From: an uncultured Gammaproteobacteria bacterium
GTDB lineage: Bacteria; Patescibacteriota; Microgenomatia; UBA8517
Reading direction: 5' to 3'
DNA: 64,000 bases
Assembly (NCBI GenBank): GCA_964395115.1
Contig: CAYMZX010000006.1
Coordinates: 26,041-90,040 of the forward strand
The translations under genes were made by a program, and so were the position numbers. Below are positions 27,832 to 38,348 of the stretch, in pieces; position 1 is the stretch's first letter; each line of letters opens with the position of its first letter. The notes under the pieces were generated by a model. The model was not told the DNA's origin. It saw nothing but the letters and a program-made list of their open reading frames with translations, and made no database searches.

Positions 27832-27884
27832 ATCGTGTAAAGACAGAAAAAGGCAGATTAAACTTAGGGCCACCCGAGGCATCG

Positions 27885-27959
27885 GGGTGGCTGACGCGAT
27901 TCGAACGCGCAACCTCAAGGTCCACAACCTCGCGCTCTAGCCATTGAGCTACAGCCACC
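27885..27959 (-). tRNA. tRNA-His (GTG) with an encoded G-1; no CCA
   Basis: Cloverleaf parsed by hand: G-1 pairs with C73, U8, anticodon loop TTGTGGA, T-loop TTCGAAT. Confidence 0.8.
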
Positions 27960-28060
27960 AAATTGAGGATGCTAAATAATATTATAGCAAAACCTAATTA
28001 AAAAAATTAGAAAATCGCTTCCCGGGCGAGGATTTAATTTAACAACCTTTCCAGGGGGGA

Positions 28061-28561
28061 TTATTGAAGCTTCGATTTGGGGTTTACCCAAAGCATCCAT
28101 CCATCAACCCATGTTCGACCATGAACATCCAGAGTGTCGTACCAGCGTTTATTAAATTCATTTTTACCTATCTGCCAAATTCCTTTACGTGACGTAGAAG
28201 GATCAACAAGGGTTAACACTTTAGCCTTTTTGTCGTAATCGCCGACTATCGAATAATGTCCGCAAGGTTCGTCTTCATCTAAGTCATCGGTCCAGTTTAC
28301 AATAACAATATTTCCTTTATTTAAATGATGTTCAATGTCGGCAAAAATGGCATTTATTTTGTAGTTTACGATCTTGAAAAATTTACTTAGGTAGGACAGC
28401 ATGATTTGCTGATTGGTACCCCACCAATCTTTGTAAATCGCCCTGGCTATTTCCTTCTGAGTTTTTTTTATCCCCACGGCAAGGAGAACCATTTGAACCA
28501 CCGCCGGTCCGCACCAGCCGGGTTTTTCCTGAAAACGGTGATATTTATTCCATGAAATCAT
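28061..28561 (-). CDS. Papain-like cysteine peptidase (C39_2/BtrH-like)
   Basis: GWCGPAVVQM catalytic Cys context and a downstream CGHYSIV His. Confidence 0.55.
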   Translation of the reverse strand: MISWNKYHRFQEKPGWCGPAVVQMVLLAVGIKKTQKEIARAIYKDWWGTNQQIMLSYLSKFFKIVNYKINAIFADIEHHLNKGNIVIVNWTDDLDEDEPCGHYSIVGDYDKKAKVLTLVDPSTSRKGIWQIGKNEFNKRWYDTLDVHGRTWVDGWMLWVNPKSKLQ

Positions 28562-28563
28562 AA

Positions 28564-28634
28564 GAGCGGGGTACGGGAGTCGAACCCGTCTTCTCAGCTT
28601 GGAAAGCTGATGTTGAACCGCTCAACTAACCCCG
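28564..28634 (-). tRNA. tRNA-Gly (TCC)
   Basis: Hand-folded cloverleaf: acceptor GCGGGGT/ACCCCGC, anticodon loop TTTCCAA. Confidence 0.8.
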
Positions 28635-28642
28635 CTAATGGT

Positions 28643-28719
28643 TTGGTCGGGGAGGGCGGACTCGAACCGCCGACCTCACGCTCCCAAAGCGCGCACTCTA
28701 ACCAACTGAGCTACTCCCC
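28643..28719 (-). tRNA. tRNA-Pro (TGG), CCA encoded
   Basis: Acceptor CGGGGAG/CTCCCCG, anticodon loop TTTGGGA, T-loop TTCGAGT. Confidence 0.85.
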
Positions 28720-28736
28720 GTTAATTTCCCGCGATT

Positions 28737-28822
28737 GTGCCGGGAGGGAGACTCGAACTCCCACGCTACATTCGTAGCAACAGATTTTAAGTCTGTCCTG
28801 TCTACCGTTCCAGCATCCCGGC
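28737..28822 (-). tRNA. tRNA-Leu (TAA), type II long variable arm
   Basis: Acceptor GCCGGGA/TCCCGGC, anticodon loop CTTAAAA, long variable stem-loop. Confidence 0.8.
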
Positions 28823-28917
28823 CCACCTGCAAGTGATATTTTACTATATAATTGACATTTCTTCAGCTTTTCTCTAGTCTAAAATTAATAGCGTTTAGGA
28901 GGGGAGGTGATATAAAG

Positions 28918-29304
28918 GTGAGAAAGCCGGTGGCTTTATTAATTTTCTGGATGTTAAACTGCATAATTCTTTACGTCGCCTCTGTTATTTTCCCGCAAAG
29001 TTATGAATTGGGTACCTATCGAATTAGCGAGTTATCGTCAGCGATCTTTGCTGGTTTTTCCTGGACGGCCCTTGTGTGGATAGGCAAGCAAATATTAAAG
29101 CGGTTTGGAGTGAAGCTAGCCAAGGAAAAAGAACGAGTAGTCTATTATTATATTCCCGCCAACTTCATTGCTCTGTGGCTAATATCTAGATTCAGCTACT
29201 TTTTCGGATTCGGAATTGTTAGTTTCTGGTGGGCCCTATTGCTTGGAGTTGCGGCCGCTTTTTTGCAGTTTGGTGTCTGGAGGCTAGTAAAAAAAGGTAA
29301 ATAG
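28918..29304 (+). CDS. Hypothetical 4-TM membrane protein (GTG start after a GGAGGTGA RBS; a longer alternative starts at 28852)
   Basis: ORF plus hydrophobic helices. There is no RBS before the upstream ATG. Confidence 0.4.
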   Translation: MRKPVALLIFWMLNCIILYVASVIFPQSYELGTYRISELSSAIFAGFSWTALVWIGKQILKRFGVKLAKEKERVVYYYIPANFIALWLISRFSYFFGFGIVSFWWALLLGVAAAFLQFGVWRLVKKGK

Positions 29305-29309
29305 ATCAA

Positions 29310-29384
29310 TGGCGCCCCTGGAAGGAATCGAACCCTCACCTCATGGTCCGAAGCCATGCGCTCTATCCGTTAAGCCACAGGGGC
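29310..29384 (-). tRNA. tRNA-Arg (TCG), CCA encoded
   Basis: Acceptor GCCCCTG/CAGGGGC, anticodon loop CTTCGGA. Confidence 0.85.
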
Positions 29385-29419
29385 ATTAAATTATTTTCGC
29401 TATAATTATACCTCATAAA

Positions 29420-30493
29420 ATGAGTTTTACCCAAACAGTCAACGCCCTCGAAGAAGAAATACGAAAAACTCCTTACAATAAGGCAACGGAACATCATATT
29501 GGCAAACTCCGAGCGAGATTAGCCCGAATTAAAGAAAAACAACTGGAAAAAGAAAATAGGTCGGTGGGGGGCGGAACTGGATTTGCCGTCAAAAAACAAG
29601 GCGATGCCACTGTTGTTTTAATCGGACCTCCTTCGGTCGGAAAATCAACTCTTTTAAACCGTCTGACTAATGCTAAATCAAAAGTGGCACCATATATTTT
29701 TTCTACCGTCTCGGTTATACCGGGAATGCTTCTTTACCGAAATGCCCATATCCAGATTTTGGATCTTCCTGGTCTGATTGAGGGAGCCCGTCAGGGTAAA
29801 GGATTGGGGAAAGAGGTTATTTCGGTAGCCCGCGTTGCTGACCTACTTGTTATTATGTCTGAAATTGGAAAGGAGGACTCGAGTAAGACTATTTTGAACG
29901 AATTAGAGAAAGCCGGCATTCGTATAAACAAGGAAAGACCTAAGATTAAAATTCAAAAAAAAATTTCCGGAGGAATAGTCATCTGTTCCAATACCAAACA
30001 ATTATTATCCAAGGAGACAATTAGAGATGTTGTTTCGGAATTTGGAATTAAAAATGCTACAGTAACACTGGAGGAAAATATTACATTAGATCAATTACTG
30101 GACTGTCTCTCTCAAAGCACGGTTTATTTGCCTGCGATTTTTGTTGTCAACAAAGCCGATAAGATAAAAAAACGAACCCAACTTACTTATGATGATATTC
30201 TATATATTAGTGCAAAAGACGGCTCTGGTCTCGAACAGTTAAAAGAAAAAATTTGGGAAAAATTAAAACTAGTGGAATTATATTTGATCAAGCCCGGCGA
30301 ACCCATGGGAAGACATACACCAATTATTATGAAAAAAGGCGAAACTCTTTACGATATAACCTTGAAAATAGGGTCTGAATTTGCTAGGAGTAAAAAGCTA
30401 GCTAAAATCTGGGGCGGTTCTGCTAGTTTTCCTGGGCAGTCGGTACCTTTAACAAGGGTAGTTGAACAAGATCTGATGGTTATGTTTATATGA
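29420..30493 (+). CDS. DRG/Rbg1-like OBG-family GTPase with a C-terminal TGS domain
   Basis: DRG-type N-terminus (NKATEHHIGKLRARLARIK), G1 GPPSVGKST, G3 DLPGL, G4 NKAD, and a TGS-like C-terminus. Confidence 0.75.
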   Translation: MSFTQTVNALEEEIRKTPYNKATEHHIGKLRARLARIKEKQLEKENRSVGGGTGFAVKKQGDATVVLIGPPSVGKSTLLNRLTNAKSKVAPYIFSTVSVIPGMLLYRNAHIQILDLPGLIEGARQGKGLGKEVISVARVADLLVIMSEIGKEDSSKTILNELEKAGIRINKERPKIKIQKKISGGIVICSNTKQLLSKETIRDVVSEFGIKNATVTLEENITLDQLLDCLSQSTVYLPAIFVVNKADKIKKRTQLTYDDILYISAKDGSGLEQLKEKIWEKLKLVELYLIKPGEPMGRHTPIIMKKGETLYDITLKIGSEFARSKKLAKIWGGSASFPGQSVPLTRVVEQDLMVMFI

Positions 30494-30504
30494 AGCAGTG
30501 TTTT

Positions 30505-30513
30505 TGATATAAT
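30505..30513 (+). promoter_or_regulatory. Extended -10 element TGaTATAAT about 12 nt upstream of the tRNA array
   Basis: Sequence TGATATAAT at 30505-30513; the first tRNA starts at 30525. Confidence 0.35.
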
Positions 30514-30524
30514 CTACACGTACT

Positions 30525-30608
30525 GCAGACGTGGCGGAATGGTAGACGCGTACGGTTCAGGGCCGTATGAGGTTTACCCTCGTAGAGGTTCAAATCCTCT
30601 CGTCTGCA
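30525..30608 (+). tRNA. tRNA-Leu (CAG), type II
   Basis: Acceptor GCAGACG/CGTCTGC+A, anticodon stem TACGG/CCGTA with loop TTCAGGG, T-loop TTCAAAT. Confidence 0.85.
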
Positions 30609-30609
30609 C

Positions 30610-30685
30610 TCGCAGCTCGTGAGAGATCGGATTTGAAAGTGCCAAGTAAGGAAAACGCTTTGCACACAAATCCTCTCGTCTGCAC
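30610..30685 (+). repeat. 57-nt insert (30610-30666) followed by an exact 19-nt direct repeat (30667-30685) of the tRNA-Leu(CAG) 3' end (30591-30609)
   Basis: Direct string identity caaatcctctcgtctgcac at both positions. Confidence 0.85.
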
Positions 30686-30692
30686 CCGACAA

Positions 30693-30775
30693 GCACTCGT
30701 GGCGGAATTGGCATACGCGATAGCTTGAGGAGCTATGCCCGTAAGGGCGTGGGAGTTCGAGTCTCCCCGAGTGCA
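30693..30775 (+). tRNA. tRNA-Leu (GAG), type II
   Basis: Acceptor GCACTCG/CGAGTGC+A, anticodon stem ATAGC/GCTAT with loop TTGAGGA. Confidence 0.85.
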
Positions 30776-30776
30776 C

Positions 30777-30858
30777 TCACATACGTTCGTGCTCACGTGG
30801 ATGCTCGATAGTGCCAAGTAAGGTAAGAGGCTTTGCACACGAGTCTCCCCGAGTGCAC
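30777..30858 (+). repeat. 63-nt insert (30777-30839), related to the previous insert, followed by an exact 19-nt direct repeat (30840-30858) of the tRNA-Leu(GAG) 3' end (30758-30776)
   Basis: Identity cgagtctccccgagtgcac at both positions. The inserts share ctc.ca..cg.tcgtg at the start and agtgccaagtaagg.aa...gctttgcacac at the end. Confidence 0.85.
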
Positions 30859-30868
30859 AAAAACAGTT

Positions 30869-30942
30869 GGTCGCTTAGCTCAGCCGGTTAGAGCGTGCGG
30901 TTTACATCCGCAAGGTCGCAGGTTCGATTCCTGCAGCGACCA
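30869..30942 (+). tRNA. tRNA-Val (TAC)
   Basis: Acceptor GGTCGCT/AGCGACC, anticodon loop TTTACAT. Confidence 0.85.
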
Positions 30943-30947
30943 CAAAT

Positions 30948-31020
30948 GCTGGGATAGCCAAGGTGGTCACGGCGGGCGCCTGAAGAGCGTCAGATGTGTG
31001 TTCGACTCACACTCCCAGCA
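30948..31020 (+). tRNA. tRNA-Phe (GAA)
   Basis: Acceptor GCTGGGA/TCCCAGC, anticodon loop CTGAAGA, T-loop TTCGACT. Confidence 0.75.
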
Positions 31021-31025
31021 CCTAA

Positions 31026-31097
31026 GCGGGCGTAGTTTACCGGCAAAACGCTTCCTTGCCAAGGAAGAGAAAGTGGGTTCAATTCCCATCGCCCGCT
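31026..31097 (+). tRNA. tRNA-Gly (GCC)
   Basis: Acceptor GCGGGCG/CGCCCGC, anticodon loop TTGCCAA. Confidence 0.85.
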
Positions 31098-31101
31098 CTG
31101 C

Positions 31102-31175
31102 GCCCCCGTAGCTCAATTGGACAGAGCATATCGGTTCTAACGATGCGGTTGAGCGTTCGAGTCGCTCCGGGGGCA
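31102..31175 (+). tRNA. tRNA-Arg (TCT)
   Basis: Acceptor GCCCCCG/CGGGGGC, anticodon loop GTTCTAA, T-loop TTCGAGT. Confidence 0.8.
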
Positions 31176-31179
31176 CTTG

Positions 31180-31226
31180 GGGCCTGTAGCTTAACGGTAG
31201 AGCGATTAACTCTTTAGATTGAAAAT
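31180..31226 (+). pseudogene. Truncated tRNA-like 5' fragment (acceptor + D-arm + anticodon-loop-like CTCTTTA), homologous to the 5' half of the following tRNA-Lys. No 3' half.
   Basis: GGGCCTGTAGCTTAACGGTAGAGCG aligns with GGGCCGCTAGCTCAACGGTAGAGCG. No T-arm or 3' acceptor strand was found downstream. Confidence 0.45.
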
Positions 31227-31317
31227 GGGCCGCTAGCTCAACGGTAGAGCGGCGCCCTCTTAAGGCGACGGTTCCGAGTTCGAATCTCGGGCGGCTCACA
31301 GAAGCCCATTTTCAATC
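31217..31317 (+). repeat. 14-bp perfect inverted repeat GATTGAAAATGGGC / GCCCATTTTCAATC (31217-31230 and 31304-31317) bracketing tRNA-Lys(CTT)
   Basis: Exact reverse complement. The last 4 nt of the left arm are the first 4 nt of the tRNA. Confidence 0.8.
31227..31298 (+). tRNA. tRNA-Lys (CTT). The anticodon stem has one G.A mismatch.
   Basis: Acceptor GGGCCGC/GCGGCTC (one GU pair), D-arm GCTC/GAGC, anticodon loop CTCTTAA, T-arm CCGAG-TTCGAAT-CTCGG. Confidence 0.6.
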
Positions 31318-33522: not shown

Positions 33523-33608
33523 GCCGAGGTGGCGAAATGGTAGACGCGCATGGTTTAGGACCATGTCCACATTAAATGTGGGTGGGGGTTCGAATCCCTT
33601 CCTCGGCA
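33523..33608 (+). tRNA. tRNA-Leu (TAG), type II
   Basis: Acceptor GCCGAGG/CCTCGGC+A, anticodon stem CATGG/CCATG with loop TTTAGGA, T-loop TTCGAAT. Confidence 0.85.
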
Positions 33609-33778
33609 CACGAAAGTATCAGATGGGTATGCGCGAGCCGCGAATGGACGCGCGACGAGCGCATCGTGCGGTGGATTCGGGCAAAATTCAATCCGTTTAT
33701 TCTGCAGTAAGAAGTTCGAGCCGACCTTTTTTGCGATGACTGAAAGTTCATCGCAATTATTTTTTCTGCGCACAATTT
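33609..33778 (+). repeat. 170-bp repeat, copy 1, starting immediately after the tRNA-Leu(TAG) discriminator base
   Basis: Near-identical to 38105-38274 (reverse complement). Its first ~100 nt also occur at 36655-36755. Confidence 0.85.
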
Positions 33779-34370
33779 AACTGGCTTCGCCAGCTTTAGC
33801 CCGCTTTGCGGGCACTTCTTCCTCCCCAAGCTTTGATACTATATCACACTTGTATGCATCCTCATCCAAAATCGGATCCCAGAGATGATCCTTATCAGGA
33901 ACAATATGGATATGGAAATGATCCGGCCTTACTGTTCCAGAAACTGGATCAAAGCGATCAGCTCTAAATCTCCAAAAATGAACGATCTTTTTAACATCGG
34001 AGCCATCTGCTCGCTTTAGTTTTGCGTCAAGCATTTTTCGCTTAACATGAGAAAGAACATCAAGAAGCTCGGCATTTTCTTTATAGGTTTGCTCATCAAA
34101 TTCAACAAAGTGCCTTTTTGAAATGACCATAGTATGCCACCACCAATACGGGGCAAGATTAGCTATCCAAACACAATGCTGAAACTCCTTCAGTACAATT
34201 TGATATTTATTCCAATGACAAAAGGTGCAGACGTCCTTTGGGATGCTCGGAATAAAAACCTTATCATACTCCTCACGGCTGAGAAGCCTTGTAGGAGGAG
34301 TTTCTACTTTCTCCAACTTTTTTGGGTTGTCTTTTTGCATAATTAACCATATTTTAGCACGAAGTGCCAA
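33777..34370 (-). CDS. HIT-family nucleotide hydrolase/transferase with an N-terminal CxxC (GalT/Ap4A-phosphorylase-like branch)
   Basis: Histidine triad DHFHIHIVP and an upstream CTFCHW. Paralog of 35973-36443. The start may be the internal MQKDNP. Confidence 0.65.
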   Translation of the reverse strand: MALRAKIWLIMQKDNPKKLEKVETPPTRLLSREEYDKVFIPSIPKDVCTFCHWNKYQIVLKEFQHCVWIANLAPYWWWHTMVISKRHFVEFDEQTYKENAELLDVLSHVKRKMLDAKLKRADGSDVKKIVHFWRFRADRFDPVSGTVRPDHFHIHIVPDKDHLWDPILDEDAYKCDIVSKLGEEEVPAKRAKAGEAS

Positions 34371-34377
34371 GCTTCGC

Positions 34378-34954
34378 TTACAACTCGACCTCTATTACTT
34401 GCAAATTATCCCATTTTAATTTTCTTAGCACATCAAAAATTAGTTGAGGGTACTCTGTCCAGGGAACATCCGCAACTTTCAAAAGAAAATGCCTAAAAAA
34501 GGTGCCATGCCCAACAATAGCGATCTTTTGATATTTCTTTGTTTTTTTCTCCTTGAGCAAAAATTGATAAAGCCTTTCAACTCTATTAGCAACAGAAGCA
34601 AAAGACTCTCCCCCCTTTAGGCTCCCAATATATATTCATCTTGTCTTTTTTGTGTTTGACTTCCCAAAAATCCGTTGCAAATTTCCTTGGCTTGCCGATG
34701 ATTTCTTTTGGAGTCCCATATTCTTTTATGAAATTAAGAATCTTGTAATTTTCTTTTCCGAAAATTAAATCTGCAGTCTCTTTAGCCCTCTGCATGGGAG
34801 AACAAAAAACAAAGTCTACTTCTCCAATCTTATTCTTGACTTGTTCCACTTTATCTAAAGTTTCAGAGTCTATAACAATCGGAGTTACATGTCTTTGAGT
34901 TAGCAGATCTTCCGCATCTCTTGTTCTTGCGTGCCTGATGAGATAGATTTTCAT
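34378..34954 (-). pseudogene. Histidine phosphatase (phosphoglycerate-mutase family) gene split by a frameshift in a C7/G7 homopolymer (34610-34616)
   Basis: The N-terminal ORF (LIRHARTRD, catalytic RHG) and the C-terminal ORF (IVGHGTFFRHFL) are in different frames. A 1-nt shift in the G7 run gives the continuous ...EPKGGESFASVANRVERLYQFL... Confidence 0.7.
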
Positions 34955-35352
34955 TAGCCAGTTTGTCCTAATCTTGGCCTCCTACCGGTACTGCCTAGAT
35001 AACTAAAATCTCTGTAAAACCTTCGCAAACTGCCTCCTTCGTCTCTTATCCCCGGTCTTACATTTCTTAGTAACTCTGCTACCTCCGGTTTTCGGGCATA
35101 CTCGACAACTTCCTCCCAATTTACTGGGGTACTGATTAGTGGGTACTGAGGATTTACCCCATCTACAAAAATTACAGAAATTTGTTCTCCCAAGCGTCTT
35201 GCCAAAGCACATCTATGTAATCCATCCACTATTGCCGGTACACCATCGCTTATTTCGATAACTGGTGGTGCAACAGTATATTTTAAGTTATAGTAAATGT
35301 GGTCGAGTTTAAAAATATCAACACCATCCTCGCTTAATATATCTTCACGCAT
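34954..35352 (-). CDS. ParB/sulfiredoxin-fold (ParB-like nuclease domain) protein
   Basis: IVDGLHRCALARRLG resembles the ParB N-terminal DGxHR...LG motif. 132 aa; its stop is adjacent to the start of the next gene. Confidence 0.45.
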   Translation of the reverse strand: MREDILSEDGVDIFKLDHIYYNLKYTVAPPVIEISDGVPAIVDGLHRCALARRLGEQISVIFVDGVNPQYPLISTPVNWEEVVEYARKPEVAELLRNVRPGIRDEGGSLRRFYRDFSYLGSTGRRPRLGQTG

Positions 35353-35560
35353 CGAGGCTACAAATTGAAGGTTACTTGTTAGAACATATTTCGCGATTGG
35401 ATATAAATCGTTTGGGTCAAATGTTCTTATTGATATCTCTGCGCTTCTGTAAAGCGAACCCTGCCATCTAAGGTTCTAGTGTCACGAACAGCCTCTAATA
35501 GTTGTAACTTTGGCTCGGTTTCTAGTTCGAATATCGCTTCATTCATTCTTTCTATATTGG

Positions 35561-35923
35561 TTATAAGAAGTATTTAGAGATATCAGTCCAGTTAGTAAAT
35601 CTCAGAGCCCTATCATCAATGTAAACCAAAGCATTGGGCTTTACGGCTGTTATATCGTGATAATGCTTATTTAGTTCGAATCCATTTTCCGATAGCCATT
35701 TAGTCATTTTATTTTTCTCAAGGTTTGTATCCTCATTCACCTCTGGGTTTAGTCGGATTGTAAAGATTACTACCTTATAACCTTTCTCAACCATTCTTTC
35801 CATTTGATCCCTAGCTCCTTTCATCGGAGGATCATAAATGGAACCGTCCTGCCAACCTTTGCTGTATCGATGGATCACACCATCAAAATCAATACAAATA
35901 GCTTTTTGCTTCATGATAGTCAA
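35561..35923 (-). CDS. Small HAD-superfamily phosphatase (5' nucleotidase / PNK 3'-phosphatase-like)
   Basis: Motif I ICIDFDGVI (DxDG), motif III K, and a C-terminal YIDDR acidic motif. Confidence 0.45.
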   Translation of the reverse strand: MTIMKQKAICIDFDGVIHRYSKGWQDGSIYDPPMKGARDQMERMVEKGYKVVIFTIRLNPEVNEDTNLEKNKMTKWLSENGFELNKHYHDITAVKPNALVYIDDRALRFTNWTDISKYFL

Positions 35924-35972
35924 AGTATATCAAAAACTTGTAAAAATTGACAACAAACGAACGCGGTTGGTT

Positions 35973-36443
35973 TTATTGGAGCAAACCCAATATCTTCTTT
36001 TTAAGCTCATTAGGAGACATGCGAACTGTATGGATGTTGGCAATAAAACCCGCAAAGCCGTTTATCGGTTGGTGGTGAACTCTGGGGATTATTTGCCAGT
36101 GAAGATGTTTCACAGATGAACCAGATTCTGGGCCAACATTGAAGCCGATGTTAAAGGATTTTGTGTCAAAGATTTTTAAAAGAATTGTTTTTGTCTGTTC
36201 AGTCAGTCCCTGAAGTTCTCCCCACTCGTTTTTGTTAAGATCTGATGTATCTTCAGCGTGGCGTTTTAATACCAACATCAAGTTCCCATCGAAAATGGGG
36301 TATTGATTGACAAAAATCATCCAGCTTTTCCCTTCCAGAGGTTTGATATTTTGTTTCTCGATTATTTGTCTGTCACAAAAGGGGCAATTTTTATTGTGGT
36401 AGTTGTGATTGTATTTTAATCTGTATGGATTATAAACTTTCAT
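35973..36443 (-). CDS. HIT-family protein with an N-terminal CxxC (HxHxQ variant)
   Basis: CPFCDR and KHLHWQIIPR. Paralogous to 33777-34370. Confidence 0.7.
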   Translation of the reverse strand: MKVYNPYRLKYNHNYHNKNCPFCDRQIIEKQNIKPLEGKSWMIFVNQYPIFDGNLMLVLKRHAEDTSDLNKNEWGELQGLTEQTKTILLKIFDTKSFNIGFNVGPESGSSVKHLHWQIIPRVHHQPINGFAGFIANIHTVRMSPNELKKKILGLLQ

Positions 36444-36537
36444 AGCGTCAATTCAATAATGCTTAAGAATATCATAATTTGCTATACTGAAAACATATTT
36501 AAAATTTTTGCCTTTTTATTTCTGCCTAGAGGTGGTG

Positions 36538-36755
36538 TTCGAGCCGACTTTTTTTGCGATGCCATCAGGACGAGCTAGAAATGGTGCGGCTGTCTGTAGC
36601 GGGCGGCAGCCGCTCCGCTTTGAAATACGTTCGAATTTGAACATATACAGAGCACACGAAAGTATCAGATGGGTATGCGCGAGCCGCGACAGGCCGCGCG
36701 GCGAGCGCATCGTGCGGTGGATTCGGGCAAAATTCAATCCGTTTATCTGAATAAG
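36538..36755 (+). repeat. Permuted copy 2 of the 170-bp repeat: distal segment (36538-36563), ~90 nt unique with palindromes, then proximal 100-nt segment (36655-36755)
   Basis: String matches to copy 1: gttcgagccgac(c)tttttgcgatg and cacgaaagtatcag...caatccgtttat. Confidence 0.75.
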
Positions 36756-36786
36756 AAAAACTAAAAACGCAAAAATTTTAAACACC

Positions 36787-38313
36787 ATGAAATATATAGC
36801 TTACTGTAGAAAATCAACAGATGAGAAGGAAAAACAAATTCTTTCCATTGATCAGCAAATTTATGAATTAAAGCAGTTTGCGCAAAAAGAGAATTTAGAG
36901 ATAGTTGAGTTTTTGACAGAAGCGCAAACTGCTAAGATTCCAGGCAGAAAAGTATTTTCAAACCTGGTGAAGCTGTTAGAAAATGGATATGCTGACGGAA
37001 TTGTTGCGTGGCATCCAGATAGACTAGCAAGAAATTCAATAGATGGTGGTAAAATTATTTATTTGCTAGATGAAGGAAAATTACAGTCCCTGAAATTTCC
37101 TACTTTCTGGTTTGAAAATACTCCACAGGGGAAATTTATGCTTAATATTGCCTTTGGCCAAGCGAAATACTATGTTGATAATTTAAGCGAAAATGTCAAA
37201 AGAGGTTTGCATTTTAAAGCCAGACAAGGTGAGTGGCCTGGCATGGCTCCATTTGGTTATTTCAACGACAAAAATACCCGTTCCATCAAAATTATGCCTG
37301 AACAAGCTAAACTAGTAGAAACAGTTTTTAATAAATTTGCTGACAACGAATTTTCTTCCTTGAGAGAAATCAGAGACTATTTGTTCAGGCACAGTGTAAA
37401 AAGAAAGGACGACAGGCCACTTCACTACAATCAAATTCGTGATATGTTGACGCGTAATCTGTATTACGGAGTTTTTACTTATGCAGGAGAAACTTACGAG
37501 GGTAAACATGAGCCAATAATCTCCAAGAAATTATTTGACCAAGTTCAAGAAGTCATAGCTAGTAAATACAACTCTAAGCCCCAAAAACACGAATTTGATT
37601 TTACTGGTTTTATTAAATGCAAAAATTGCGATTCTTTTATCACTGCAGAACGCCACAAAAAATATTACAAAAAGACTGACAGACACGCAGAATACACTTA
37701 TTACCGTTGTGTCAAAAAGAAAGGGTTTTGTGATCAGCCATATGTCAGAGAGAAAGAGGTTGAATCGCAATTAAGGGAACTTGTGGACAGCGTTGCGCTG
37801 TCTGAGGCGTGGGCTAGGAAAATGTTTGAACTACTTGAAAAAGACGAAATCAGAGAGAAAGGAAAAATCAAGATTGGGCTTGTCCGTCTCACAACTTCCC
37901 TTGAAGTGGTTGAGAAGAAGCTAGACAAACTTCTTGAGTCTTATTTAGAAGAAATTGTTGATACCGAAAGTTATCAAGTCAAAAAGGATCAACTGCTTCA
38001 ACAAAAAATAATTCTCAAAGAGAAAATTGAGGAGATTAAGACCAAAGGAAGTGTTTGGCTCGAACCTATGAGGGAATTTATAAATATGGCCGCTGATGCG
38101 GCCAAAATTGTGCGCAGAAAAAATAATTGCGATGAACTTTCAGTCATCGCAAAAAAGGTCGGCTCGAACTTCTTACTGCAGAATAAACGGATTGAATTTT
38201 GCCCGAATCCACCGCACGATGCGCTCGCCGCGCGGCCTGTCGCGGCTCGCGCATACCCATCTGATACTTTCGTGTGCCGCCAGAGAGATTCGAACTCTCG
38301 ATTTTCTGGTTGA
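36787..38313 (+). CDS. Large serine recombinase (resolvase/invertase catalytic domain + recombinase domain + zinc ribbon); the C-terminal ~70 aa are encoded by repeat copy 3
   Basis: N-terminal YCRKSTDEKEKQ..SIDQQ (catalytic Ser context), DRLARN, and a Cys-rich CKNCDS...YYRCVKKKGFC zinc ribbon. The ORF has no stop until 38313, inside tRNA-Glu. Confidence 0.85.
   Translation: MKYIAYCRKSTDEKEKQILSIDQQIYELKQFAQKENLEIVEFLTEAQTAKIPGRKVFSNLVKLLENGYADGIVAWHPDRLARNSIDGGKIIYLLDEGKLQSLKFPTFWFENTPQGKFMLNIAFGQAKYYVDNLSENVKRGLHFKARQGEWPGMAPFGYFNDKNTRSIKIMPEQAKLVETVFNKFADNEFSSLREIRDYLFRHSVKRKDDRPLHYNQIRDMLTRNLYYGVFTYAGETYEGKHEPIISKKLFDQVQEVIASKYNSKPQKHEFDFTGFIKCKNCDSFITAERHKKYYKKTDRHAEYTYYRCVKKKGFCDQPYVREKEVESQLRELVDSVALSEAWARKMFELLEKDEIREKGKIKIGLVRLTTSLEVVEKKLDKLLESYLEEIVDTESYQVKKDQLLQQKIILKEKIEEIKTKGSVWLEPMREFINMAADAAKIVRRKNNCDELSVIAKKVGSNFLLQNKRIEFCPNPPHDALAARPVAARAYPSDTFVCRQRDSNSRFSG
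38105..38274 (-). repeat. 170-bp repeat, copy 3 (inverted relative to copies 1 and 2), starting immediately after the tRNA-Glu discriminator base
   Basis: Reverse complement of copy 1 with a few substitutions. Its GC hairpin is identical to that of copy 2. Confidence 0.85.
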
Positions 38314-38348
38314 GAACCAGACGTCCTGGGCCACTAGACGATGGCGGC
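38275..38348 (-). tRNA. tRNA-Glu (CTC)
   Basis: Acceptor GCCGCCA/TGGCGGC+A, D-arm GTCTAGTGGCCCAGGAC, anticodon loop TTCTCAA, T-loop TTCGAAT. Confidence 0.85.

What the first reader, a model, noticed from the sequence alone, without database searches (positions are those of the whole stretch)
33609..38274. 170-bp repeat family starting exactly at tRNA 3' ends, with a structured GC hairpin showing compensatory variation
Copies 1 and 3 both begin with cacgaaagtatcagatgggtatgcgcgagccgcg... directly after the tRNA discriminator A. Copy 2 begins after agagcA, with no intact tRNA upstream. The repeat contains a GC-rich hairpin with symmetric arms. In copies 2 and 3 it reads GCGC-GAG-CCGCG-(acaggccg)-CGCGG-CGA-GCGC. 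Copy 1 has different loop and inner-stem bases that still allow pairing. The repeat also has a second 9-bp hairpin (TTGCGATGA ctgaaagt TCATCGCAA) and a GGATT...AATCC hairpin followed by a T-rich run. Conservation of the stems despite loop changes suggests either a structured RNA transcribed as a tRNA trailer or a protein-recognised recombination site.
Basis: seen in the sequence. Interest (0 to 1): 0.6.

Follow-up and report, generated by a model that had tools for sequence, protein, structure and literature searches.

The report
Serine-recombinase element ends at tRNA genes
The 170-bp repeat is the tRNA-side end of a small mobile element, doubling as the last ~55 codons of its serine recombinase gene, and it belongs to a widespread, apparently undescribed family in candidate-phyla bacteria that inserts at the 3' end of almost any tRNA gene.

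Summary
They are not a free-standing RNA gene. Copy 3 (38105-38274, minus) is the 3' end of an intact 508-aa large serine recombinase (LSR) ORF that reads through the repeat into the antisense of tRNA-Glu. Copy 2 (36655-36746) lies just upstream of that gene and is 100% identical to copy 3. Together with a 94-nt 'p arm' on its left it forms an intact attP-like site. Copy 1 (33609-33778) is an orphan end of a second element at tRNA-Leu whose recombinase body is gone.

About 65 related loci from Patescibacteria share one architecture: flank|p' – cargo – p|a – LSR – a'|tRNA. Both inverted-repeat pairs are near-perfect. The junctions share only a 3-7-nt core at the discriminator base. A TTCGAA motif lies 5 bp further from the core in the p arm than the T-loop does in the tRNA, which matches the known attP/attB geometry of LSRs.

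The within-window 'compensatory' change is not compensatory; it breaks a base pair. Across the family, the GC hairpin and the 9-bp palindrome do covary. The palindrome looks like an antisense terminator for the tRNA transcript. The role of the spare inverted attP is unexplained.

The parts
33523..33608 (+). tRNA-Leu(tag); its 3' part (T-loop to discriminator) is the B-type half-site 't' of an occupied attachment site
   Evidence: ARAGORN; Rfam (58.1 bits)
33609..33700 (+). copy 1, module 'a1': orphan element-side arm (P' half-site, GC hairpin 33629-33664, GGATT/AATCC hairpin 33673-33694)
   Evidence: 96% identical to copies 2 and 3; the hairpin is weakened by a G>A change
33701..33778 (+). copy 1, module 'B1': antisense relic of recombinase codons ~440-465, including palindrome H plus T-run (33731-33756), which is terminator-like on this strand
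   Evidence: (ORF 33555..33773 gives MRRKNNCDELSVIAKKVGSNFLLQNKRIEF...). Homology to the gene ends at 33778, where the cargo begins as it does in L002 and L081
33777..36443 (-). cargo: HIT-family, His_Phos (frameshifted), ParB-CE-like (frameshifted), HAD-like and HIT-family genes; the same cargo travels with the recombinase in L002 and L081
36498..36560 (+). AT-rich region (36498-36528, an inverted copy of 36752-36782) plus a relic of the recombinase '..IAKKVGSN' coding segment (BL', 36529-36560)
   Evidence: I3; ORF 36516..36788 ends ..IAKKVGSNTTSRQK
36561..36654 (+). 'p arm': P-type half-site with TTCGAAT 15 nt from the core and its own GC hairpin. On the minus strand it encodes the alternative recombinase C-terminus CSVYVQIRTYFKAERLPPATDSRTISSSS*
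36655..36746 (+). copy 2, module 'a2'. With the p arm it forms an intact attP-like site (core GCAC at 36652-36655), inverted relative to copy 3 and 100% identical to it
   Evidence: (I2)
36787..38313 (+). large serine recombinase ORF, 508 aa (Resolvase, Recombinase and Zn-ribbon domains). Residues ~440-496 are encoded by copy 3, and the last 13 codons are antisense tRNA-Glu
38105..38182 (-). copy 3, module 'B3', with palindrome H (38127-38152) plus T-run on the minus strand (the tRNA-sense strand)
38183..38274 (-). copy 3, module 'a3': element-side arm joined to tRNA-Glu (attL-type junction t|a)
38275..38348 (-). tRNA-Glu(ctc), the target gene; intact up to the discriminator
   Evidence: 66.3 bits

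Best explanation
The repeat is the tRNA-proximal end of a large-serine-recombinase (LSR) integrative element.

Reading away from the tRNA, the repeat contains:
- the element-side (P') half-site of the recombinase's attachment site;
- a GC hairpin and a second small hairpin;
- a palindrome followed by a T-run.
On the other strand the same 170 nt are the last ~55 codons of the recombinase gene.

Inferred mechanism. The recombinase binds an attP made of the 'p arm' plus 'a'. It binds an attB made of the 3' part of a tRNA gene, reading the conserved T-loop GGTTCGAAT as its zinc-ribbon-domain motif. It exchanges strands within the 3-4 nt around the discriminator base. The tRNA stays intact. The element supplies a new trailer (including CCA in lineages that encode it) and probably a terminator. 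The recombinase ORF loses its native tail and runs into antisense tRNA.

In this window:
- Copy 3 is the attL-type junction at tRNA-Glu.
- Copy 2 is the family's standard spare, inverted, intact attP just upstream of the recombinase gene.
- Copy 1 is what remains of a second element at tRNA-Leu(tag). It was fused to the cargo of the first element by a deletion between two 21-28-bp direct copies of the T-run segment.

Shown: the anatomy, the family-wide architecture, the core position, the 5-bp motif shift, and the open reading frame. Inferred: catalysis, the exact crossover dinucleotide, the terminator function, and the deletion history.
For: 1. Recombinase ORF. ORF 36787-38313 has Resolvase (E 4.6e-22), Recombinase (5e-16) and Zn-ribbon (2.9e-8) domains. 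It matches SPbeta integrase over residues 4-418 (E 5.9e-15). It reads through copy 3 into tRNA-Glu antisense.

2. Homologue tails. Homologues at 50-85% identity end ...AKKVGSN..L..KR.EF.P...LAA...A(A/S)......C. This is followed either by R(G/E)xDSNPH, which is antisense T-arm, or by xLYxKxRTYF, which is p-arm-encoded. The window's p arm encodes the second type, 76% identical to the C-terminus of P0003.

3. tRNA linkage. In most of the 80 genome loci the gene converges on a tRNA gene, covering 15 tRNA identities.

4. Shared architecture. Nearly all loci have a 75-177-nt inverted repeat ('a') flanking the gene, mostly 100% identical, and a 90-118-nt inverted repeat ('p') flanking the cargo.

5. 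Motif shift. TTCGAAY lies 15 nt (34 loci) or 14 nt (10 loci) from the junction in p, against 10 nt (30 loci) in the tRNA. The per-locus difference is +5 in 30 loci and +4 in 8 of 40. This matches the attP/attB ZD-motif shift of LSRs (PMC3783163).

6. Core. In ~40 loci the junctions p|a, t|a and p|f share only a 3-7-nt core corresponding to N72-discriminator-C74.

7. Empty site. The window's own tRNA-Leu(taa)->Pro junction is the empty form of the site occupied in L002 and L029.

8. Coding. The recombinase frame is open through 'a' in 71 of 72 modules. Other frames carry stops in 27-45 of 72.

9. Terminator. Palindrome H is terminator-like on the tRNA-sense strand and covaries.

10. Mobility as a unit. 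L002 and L081 carry the same cargo and recombinase at other tRNAs, with a p' left end where the window has tRNA-Leu|a1-B1.
Against: - There is no direct evidence of activity.
- The window's element lacks the p|f (attR-type) end, and two cargo genes are frameshifted, so this copy may be stranded.
- The right half-sites ('a' and f) show no clear inverted ZD motif.
- The exact crossover dinucleotide is not resolved.
- No conserved directionality-factor ORF was found among cargo regions.
- The model does not explain why every element keeps a spare inverted attP, or why both repeat pairs stay ~100% identical.
- Terminator-like hairpins on the tRNA-sense strand were found in only 33 of 72 loci under strict criteria, against 17 and 10 of 72 in controls.
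Confidence: 0.8

Rival explanations
1. The repeat encodes a stand-alone structured RNA, for example a functional tRNA trailer or small RNA. Its hairpins are the functional unit, and the recombinase overlap is secondary.
For: The GC hairpin with a symmetric 2x2 internal loop occurs in 28 of 72 'a' modules, against 1.3 in shuffles, with many different complementary stems. Palindrome H has 3 pairs changed on both sides, and 96% of cells are paired against 22-46% for slid controls. The tail encoded by the repeat is predicted to be disordered (pLDDT 33-46 for residues 459-508), so nucleic-acid constraints may dominate.
Against: There is no Rfam family. The 150-nt repeat folds no better than shuffles. 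The recombinase frame is kept open in 71 of 72 modules. The repeat always travels with the recombinase gene and its boundary is a recombination core. Because the repeat occurs in both orientations in each element, no single strand is singled out.
Confidence: 0.07
2. Copies 2 and 3 are the inverted repeats of an invertible cassette. The recombinase gene flips between them, switching its own C-terminus (tRNA-antisense tail versus p-arm tail) and its promoter context.
For: Perfect 95-bp inverted repeats bracket the gene here and in nearly all relatives. Both tail types exist among database proteins. L088 has a real a'|p' at the gene end; its two copies differ at 7 of 198 positions, so it is not an assembly collapse. 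L087 has tRNA|a on the upstream side.
Against: Among the window-lineage junctions seen in metagenome contigs there were 7 t|a-B, 9-10 p|a-u, 1 p|a-B and 0 t|a-u. Among the genome loci with a detected repeat (~65), none has the flipped arrangement with its own p arm. L088 and L090 are explained by tandem insertion. Inversion at these sites would leave all junction sequences unchanged, so it is hard to see but also hard to require.
Confidence: 0.08
3. The 1.6-kb unit a2-recombinase-a3 is an IS-like transposon whose terminal inverted repeats are the 'a' modules. It inserted between two tRNA-like targets.
For: It has perfect terminal inverted repeats with a recombinase between them. Both outer flanks end in ..GCA and contain TTCGAA.
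Against: The left flank (p arm) co-varies and travels with the element across genomes and different tRNAs, and has its own inverted partner beyond the cargo. There is no target duplication. IS607-type serine transposase models score far below cut-off (32 against 110 bits). There is no match to plasmid or phage records.
Confidence: 0.03
4. The copies are plain segmental duplications or recombination debris with no present function.
For: Copy 1 is clearly a relic: the gene body is missing and the hairpin is weakened. Cargo genes are frameshifted.
Against: The same arrangement recurs, with near-perfect repeats, in ~65 loci whose recombinases are only 41-85% identical. That requires maintenance, not decay.
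Confidence: 0.02

Closest known systems
Phage and ICE large serine integrases (phiC31, Bxb1, A118/LI integrase, SPbeta SprA)
   Same: They share the resolvase, recombinase and zinc-ribbon domains with a coiled coil. Identity between sites is limited to a short core. The distal DNA motif lies 5 bp further out in attP than in attB.
   Different: The target is the 3' end of many different tRNA genes, read through the universal T-loop. The attP lies inside the recombinase's own 3' coding end, so integration rewrites its C-terminus. Every element keeps a second, inverted, intact attP upstream of the gene. The cargo is 0.8-7 kb of unrelated genes bracketed by a second perfect inverted repeat. No conserved directionality factor was found. 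No NCBIfam equivalog reaches its cut-off.
tRNA-targeting islands and viruses with tyrosine integrases (P4-type islands; SSV1-type, in which attP lies inside the int gene) - from established knowledge
   Same: Insertion is at the 3' end of tRNA genes with the tRNA kept functional. As in SSV1, the attachment site lies inside the integrase ORF, so the gene is altered by integration.
   Different: The enzyme is a serine, not a tyrosine, recombinase. There is no 15-50-bp direct repeat of the tRNA 3' part at the two ends; only 3-7 nt are shared. Only the C-terminal tail is replaced, and the gene is not split.
Clostridial LSR transposons Tn4451/Tn5397 (TnpX/TndX) - from memory
   Same: An LSR is the only mobility protein of a small element. 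Both excision and insertion are presumed to proceed without a separate factor, via a circle whose joint is the insertion substrate.
   Different: Those elements insert at GA dinucleotides in loosely defined targets. They are not tRNA-specific and have no nested inverted-repeat architecture.
Recombinase genes bracketed by inverted copies of their own site (yeast 2-micron FLP/FRT; Hin/Gin-type invertible segments) - from established knowledge
   Same: The recombinase gene, or an adjacent segment, is flanked by perfect inverted repeats that contain the enzyme's recombination site.
   Different: Both orientations are abundant in those systems. Here only one orientation is seen. The two sites are also not equivalent, being attP-type and attL-type.

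Membership tests
Large serine recombinase (serine integrase) | N-terminal resolvase catalytic domain with the catalytic serine in an R-x-S context | tested here: met
   PF00239 E 4.6e-22 over residues 4-150. Y6-C7-R8-K9-S10-T11 is nearly invariant in 49 homologues.
Large serine recombinase (serine integrase) | Recombinase domain plus zinc-ribbon domain with four Cys and a coiled-coil insertion | tested here: met
   PF07508 5e-16 and PF13408 2.9e-8. C278, C281, C308 and C315 are invariant. Long helices 340-387 and 393-420 appear in the model. It aligns to SPbeta integrase at 4-418.
Large serine recombinase (serine integrase) | attP and attB share only a short core, and the distal (ZD) motif lies ~5 bp closer to the centre in attB than in attP | tested here: met
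   Core of 3-7 nt in ~40 loci. Motif offset 15 against 10 nt, with a per-locus difference of +5 in 30 and +4 in 8 of 40. Reference geometry from PMC3783163.
Large serine recombinase (serine integrase) | Strand exchange at a 2-bp central dinucleotide; attP x attB recombination catalysed by the protein | not testable with these tools
   Only the 3-4-nt window N72-discriminator-C74 can be delimited.
Large serine recombinase (serine integrase) | A separate recombination directionality factor for excision | tested here: inconclusive
   No ORF is conserved among cargo regions: 87 of 100 ORFs of at least 140 aa are singletons. A host-encoded or very small factor is not excluded.
tRNA-integrating islands of the tyrosine-integrase type | Tyrosine recombinase, with direct repeats of the tRNA 3' segment at both ends | tested here: not met
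   The enzyme is a serine recombinase, and the junctions share only 3-7 nt.
Invertible DNA segment (Hin/Gin-type switch) | Inverted repeats flanking a segment that is found in both orientations | tested here: not met
   Inverted repeats are present. The flipped junction t|a-u was seen 0 times among window-lineage junctions in metagenome contigs, and no flipped arrangement with its own p arm was seen among the ~65 genome loci with a detected repeat. L087 is the one odd contig.
IS607-type or other IS with terminal inverted repeats | Small serine transposase or DDE enzyme, ends that move as one unit, usually with a target duplication | tested here: not met
   IS607 model 32 bits against a cut-off of 110. 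The p arm and cargo move with the gene. There is no target duplication.
Known RNA families (Rfam 15) | A match to a covariance model at or near its gathering score | tested here: not met
   Only the two tRNAs passed. Nothing was found in the repeat at E up to 1.
Intrinsic (rho-independent) terminator | GC-containing hairpin followed directly by a T-run on the transcribed strand | tested here: met
   33731-33756 (+) and 38152-38127 (-): 9-bp stem, 8-nt loop, then TTATTTTTTC. The stem covaries. The family-wide scan gave 33 of 72 loci against 17 and 10 of 72 in controls. Actual termination was not tested.

The most novel reading that the evidence does not exclude
The nested architecture may be a mechanistic requirement and not just history. 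Every element carries, internally and inverted, an exact copy of its own joined ends (p|a).

Two readings remain open:
(i) The free form is a circle with two inverted attP sites, and integration through the one inside the recombinase ORF swaps the enzyme's C-terminal tail. That would give directionality control without a separate factor.
(ii) In single-stranded DNA the internal p|a pairs with both termini and rebuilds a duplex attP. This would be comparable to folded attC or CTX-phage sites, but for a serine recombinase.

Either would be a new way of running a serine integrase.
Probability: 0.15. Interest if true: 0.85.

Novelty: new variant of a known kind. Interest (0 to 1): 0.6.

Why it matters
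It resolves an odd-looking 'tRNA-linked structured repeat' into a defined anatomy: a large family of minimal integrative elements in Patescibacteria, with homologous proteins in the thousands. Their serine integrase appears to read the universal tRNA T-loop and cut at the discriminator base.

This matters in three ways:
1. It identifies a likely driver of the tRNA-gene reshuffling and tandem island build-up seen between related genomes.
2. It shows a gene whose 3' end serves at once as coding sequence, recombination site and antisense terminator, with amino-acid pairs that covary because their codons must base-pair.
3. Serine integrases are genome-engineering tools. A natural clade that targets a motif conserved in every organism's tRNA genes, works at many different tRNAs, and tolerates almost any sequence on the far side of the core would be a useful starting point if it is active.

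No description was found in seven full-text searches.

Tried and rejected
- Rfam scan at E up to 1: only tRNAs passed.
- BLASTN of p|a plus the gene against plasmid and phage collections: no match.
- IMG/VR scan: only 3 weak or partial relatives, not informative.
- Seven literature searches: no prior description.
- MAFFT alignment of 27 'a' modules (A2): stems of different length were not aligned in register, so it was not used for pair counting. A motif search with a shuffle control was used instead.
- Search for a conserved small cargo ORF (a candidate directionality factor): none found.
- Looked for near-identical elements at different tRNAs as proof of recent movement: none above 90% identity apart from strain duplicates.
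- Hypothesis that the p arm is a degenerate tRNA: rejected. ARAGORN and Rfam are negative, and no acceptor or T-stem pairing is visible.
- Hypothesis that the recombinase cassette flips frequently: not supported.
- An attempt to derive the window's arrangement from a single canonical element by attP x attB inversion failed. A two-element deletion fusion fits better.

Full report
**1. Observation**

The window has tRNA-Leu(tag) at 33523-33608 (+) and tRNA-Glu(ctc) at 38275-38348 (-). A 170-nt sequence starts at the first base after each discriminator. Copy 1 is 33609-33778 (+) and copy 3 is 38105-38274 (-). They differ at 4 of 170 positions.

A third copy, 36655-36746 (+), holds only the first 92-95 nt. 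It is 100% identical to copy 3 and follows '..agagcA' with no tRNA upstream. A 21-nt core occurs three times, against none in 100 shuffles.

The claimed compensatory variation does not. Three of the four differences in copy 1 are in the loop. The fourth breaks a C-G pair, changing the hairpin energy from -23.3 to -16.1 kcal/mol.

**2. What the repeat overlaps**

Copy 3 is the 3' end of a 508-aa ORF (36787-38313, +). The ORF has Resolvase, Recombinase and zinc-ribbon domains. Its best solved relative is the SPbeta large serine integrase (E 5.9e-15, residues 4-418).

The ORF reads through the whole repeat. It continues for 13 codons on the antisense of tRNA-Glu (..YPSDTFVC|RQRDSNSRFSG*).

Copy 1 read on the minus strand gives the same tail (ORF 33555..33773). 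It has no gene body, so it is a relic.

Homologues at 50-85% identity carry the same tail. They then end in one of two ways:
- 'R(G/E)xDSNPH', which is the translation of an antisense T-arm.
- 'xLYxKxRTYF..', a non-tRNA ending.

The 94 nt to the left of copy 2 (36561-36654, the 'p arm') encode the second ending in the recombinase frame. The match to the C-terminus of P0003 is 76%.

**3. Family-wide architecture**

I fetched 80 loci from species-representative genomes. Most are labelled Patescibacteria or Candidate Phyla Radiation lineages, and their recombinases are 41-81% identical to the window's. I also fetched seven close relatives and 27 metagenome contigs.

In most loci the gene converges on a tRNA gene. 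The partners cover Leu, Gln, Pro, Ser, Ala, Arg, Gly, Asn, Trp, Tyr, Lys, His, Val, Glu and Phe.

In nearly every locus with enough sequence, two inverted-repeat pairs are present:
- The last 75-177 nt before the tRNA ('a'') recur, inverted and mostly 100% identical, 30-150 nt upstream of the start codon ('a').
- The ~100 nt left of that upstream copy ('p') recur, inverted and again ~100% identical, 0.8-7 kb further left ('p'').

The canonical element, in recombinase orientation, is therefore: flank|p' – cargo – p|a – leader – recombinase – a'|tRNA.

The repeats differ strongly between genomes but not within a genome.

**4. Nature of the junctions**

In ~40 loci I compared p|a, tRNA|a and p|flank. 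They share only 3-7 nt (GCAC, CCAC, CAGC, CCGC...). These correspond to the last acceptor base(s), the discriminator and the first C of CCA. Strand exchange must therefore occur at the discriminator. This explains why the repeat starts 'exactly' at the tRNA end. There is no duplication of tRNA sequence.

The p arm always carries a GTTCGAA or GTTCGGA motif. It lies 15 nt (34 loci) or 14 nt (10 loci) from the junction. The T-loop TTCGAAT lies 10 nt from it (30 loci). The per-locus difference is +5 in 30 loci and +4 in 8 of 40.

For serine integrases, the zinc-ribbon-domain motif sits at positions 16-24 in attP half-sites and 11-19 in attB half-sites, a 5-bp shift (Rutherford et al. 2013, PMC3783163). 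On this basis:
- p|a is an attP.
- tRNA|flank is an attB.
- tRNA|a is attL.
- p|flank is attR.

The window's own Leu(taa)->Pro(tgg) junction (28720-28737) is the empty form of the site occupied in L002 and L029.

Several loci show insertion next to an already occupied tRNA. Examples are L090 with a1'|p2', and L053, L023 and L082, whose 'flank' is an 'a' remnant. This suggests that the tRNA half-site carries most of the target recognition.

**5. The window's three copies**

- Copy 3 is attL at tRNA-Glu.
- Copy 2 plus the p arm is the family's standard internal attP.
- Copy 1 is an orphan attL at tRNA-Leu(tag).

In L002 and L081 the same cargo (HIT, His_Phos, ParB-CE-like, HAD-like, HIT) and the same recombinase lie between p' and a tRNA. 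In the window the p' end is replaced by tRNA-Leu|a1-B1. The join falls in a 21-28-nt segment (..TCGCAATTATTTTTTCTGCGCACAATTT) that is present both at the canonical left end and inside the gene's 3' end.

The simplest history is two elements at two convergent tRNAs, fused by a deletion between these direct repeats. This is inference.

The window's element has no attR, and two cargo genes are frameshifted. It may therefore be immobile, although its recombinase ORF and both 'a' copies are intact.

**6. Coding versus structure**

The recombinase frame is open through 'a'' in 71 of 72 distinct modules. The other five frames carry stops in 27-45 of 72. The tail is therefore translated.

The AlphaFold model gives pLDDT 33-46 for residues 459-508, and the peptide is poorly conserved.

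The nucleic-acid features are conserved:
- A GC hairpin with a symmetric 2x2 internal loop (TC/TC, or GA/GA in the window's clade) lies 25-35 nt from the junction. It is found in 28 of 72 modules against 1.3 in shuffles, with many different complementary stems. Most other modules have a plain GC hairpin there.
- The 9-bp palindrome H lies in the codons for N-N-C-x-x-L-x-x-x-A-K-K. It has five different but fully complementary stems in the window's clade. Three pairs change on both sides, 96% of cells pair, and slid controls give 22-46%. Homologue protein tails show the matching residue pairs K/F, H/M, S/R, T/S, D/I, D/V and N/V; these are consistent with reverse-complementary codons, which is my inference because no DNA was available for those proteins.

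On the tRNA-sense strand H is followed by TTATTTTTT and scores as an intrinsic terminator. A family-wide scan finds such sites within 300 nt of the junction in 33 of 72 loci, against 17 and 10 of 72 in controls.

My reading is that the element carries, antisense within its recombinase gene, a replacement trailer and terminator for the tRNA it has cut off from its own. There is no Rfam family and no overall fold signal.

**7. What remains unexplained**

It is not clear why each element keeps a spare, inverted, intact attP next to the recombinase promoter region, or why both repeat pairs stay ~100% identical.

Frequent flipping of the recombinase cassette is not supported. Among window-lineage junctions in metagenomes I counted 7 tRNA|a-B, 9-10 p|a-leader, 1 p|a-B and 0 tRNA|a-leader.

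Two contigs are odd:
- L088 has a true a'|p' at the gene end (its two copies differ at 7 of 198 positions). It could be a tandem array or a free circle with two attPs.
- L087 has a slightly different tRNA-Leu(cag) copy on the upstream side.

Cargo genes are unrelated between elements, and no conserved directionality-factor candidate exists.

Possible roles for the spare attP are autoregulation (as with resolvase at res), a two-attP circular intermediate, or a fold-back 'splint' that juxtaposes the two ends. Gene conversion alone could keep the repeats identical.

**8. Comparison and verdict**

The enzyme meets the sequence-level criteria of a large serine recombinase, and the sites meet the attP/attB geometry. 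The element is not a tyrosine-integrase tRNA island, an IS607-type IS, a Hin-type switch or a known RNA family; the membership table gives the tests.

The following features are not in any paper I could find:
- T-loop-directed targeting of many different tRNAs.
- An attP inside the integrase ORF.
- A spare inverted attP.
- Cargo bracketed by a perfect inverted repeat.
- No conserved directionality factor.

I rate it a new variant of a known kind. The finding as written is explained as a mobile-element end, but the family behind it deserves experimental follow-up.

Noticed in passing
window 30610-30686 and 30777-30858: After tRNA-Leu(cag) and tRNA-Leu(gag) there is a related ~60-65-nt insert (..agtgccaagtaagg.aa...gctttgcacac), followed by a direct copy of the last 18 nt of the same tRNA. 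It looks like the footprint of a different, miniature tRNA-targeting element that duplicates its target.
   Followed up: no
window 31180-31226: The 5' half of a tRNA-like sequence (gggcctgtagcttaacggtagagcgattaactctttag) sits directly before tRNA-Lys(ctt). It is not called by ARAGORN.
   Followed up: no
window 34378-34954 and 34954-35560: The His_Phos and ParB-CE-like cargo genes are each split by a frameshift relative to the intact 191-aa and 203-aa versions in L081. This could be decay or a MAG consensus error.
   Followed up: partly
window 38087-38104 (-): A second terminator-like palindrome, TGGCCGCATCAGCGGCCA plus TATTTATAAA, lies antisense inside the recombinase codons for MAADAAK. Homologue tails show variants such as AVETAK whose likely codons would also be palindromic; their DNA was not examined.
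   Followed up: partly
window 36498-36528 vs 36752-36782: A 31-nt AT-rich inverted repeat (84%) brackets the internal attP block. One arm leads into the HIT gene (-) and the other into the recombinase (+). These may be divergent promoter regions controlled from the attP.
   Followed up: no
window 27884-31299 compared with L081, L083, L002: The order and orientation of the clustered tRNA genes differ between these related genomes, and the breakpoints lie at tRNA 3' ends next to the elements. This suggests recombinase-driven rearrangements.
   Followed up: partly
L087:1-176 vs 1605-1780: A 1.8-kb contig has the recombinase flanked on both sides by tRNA-Leu(cag)|a. The upstream tRNA copy carries 2 SNPs, one of them in the anticodon stem. 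This is either a real rearrangement through the internal attP or an extended gene conversion.
   Followed up: partly
L090:6291-15940: Three recombinase genes of this family lie within 16 kb. The first gene's 3' end is joined to the p' arm of the second element, forming a tandem array at tRNA-Leu(cag).
   Followed up: partly
proteins P0008, P0009, P0012, P0013, P0040, P0041: Some relatives are 817-883 aa long. They are ~50% identical over 82-97% of the query and have ~350 extra residues. The nature of the extension was not examined.
   Followed up: no
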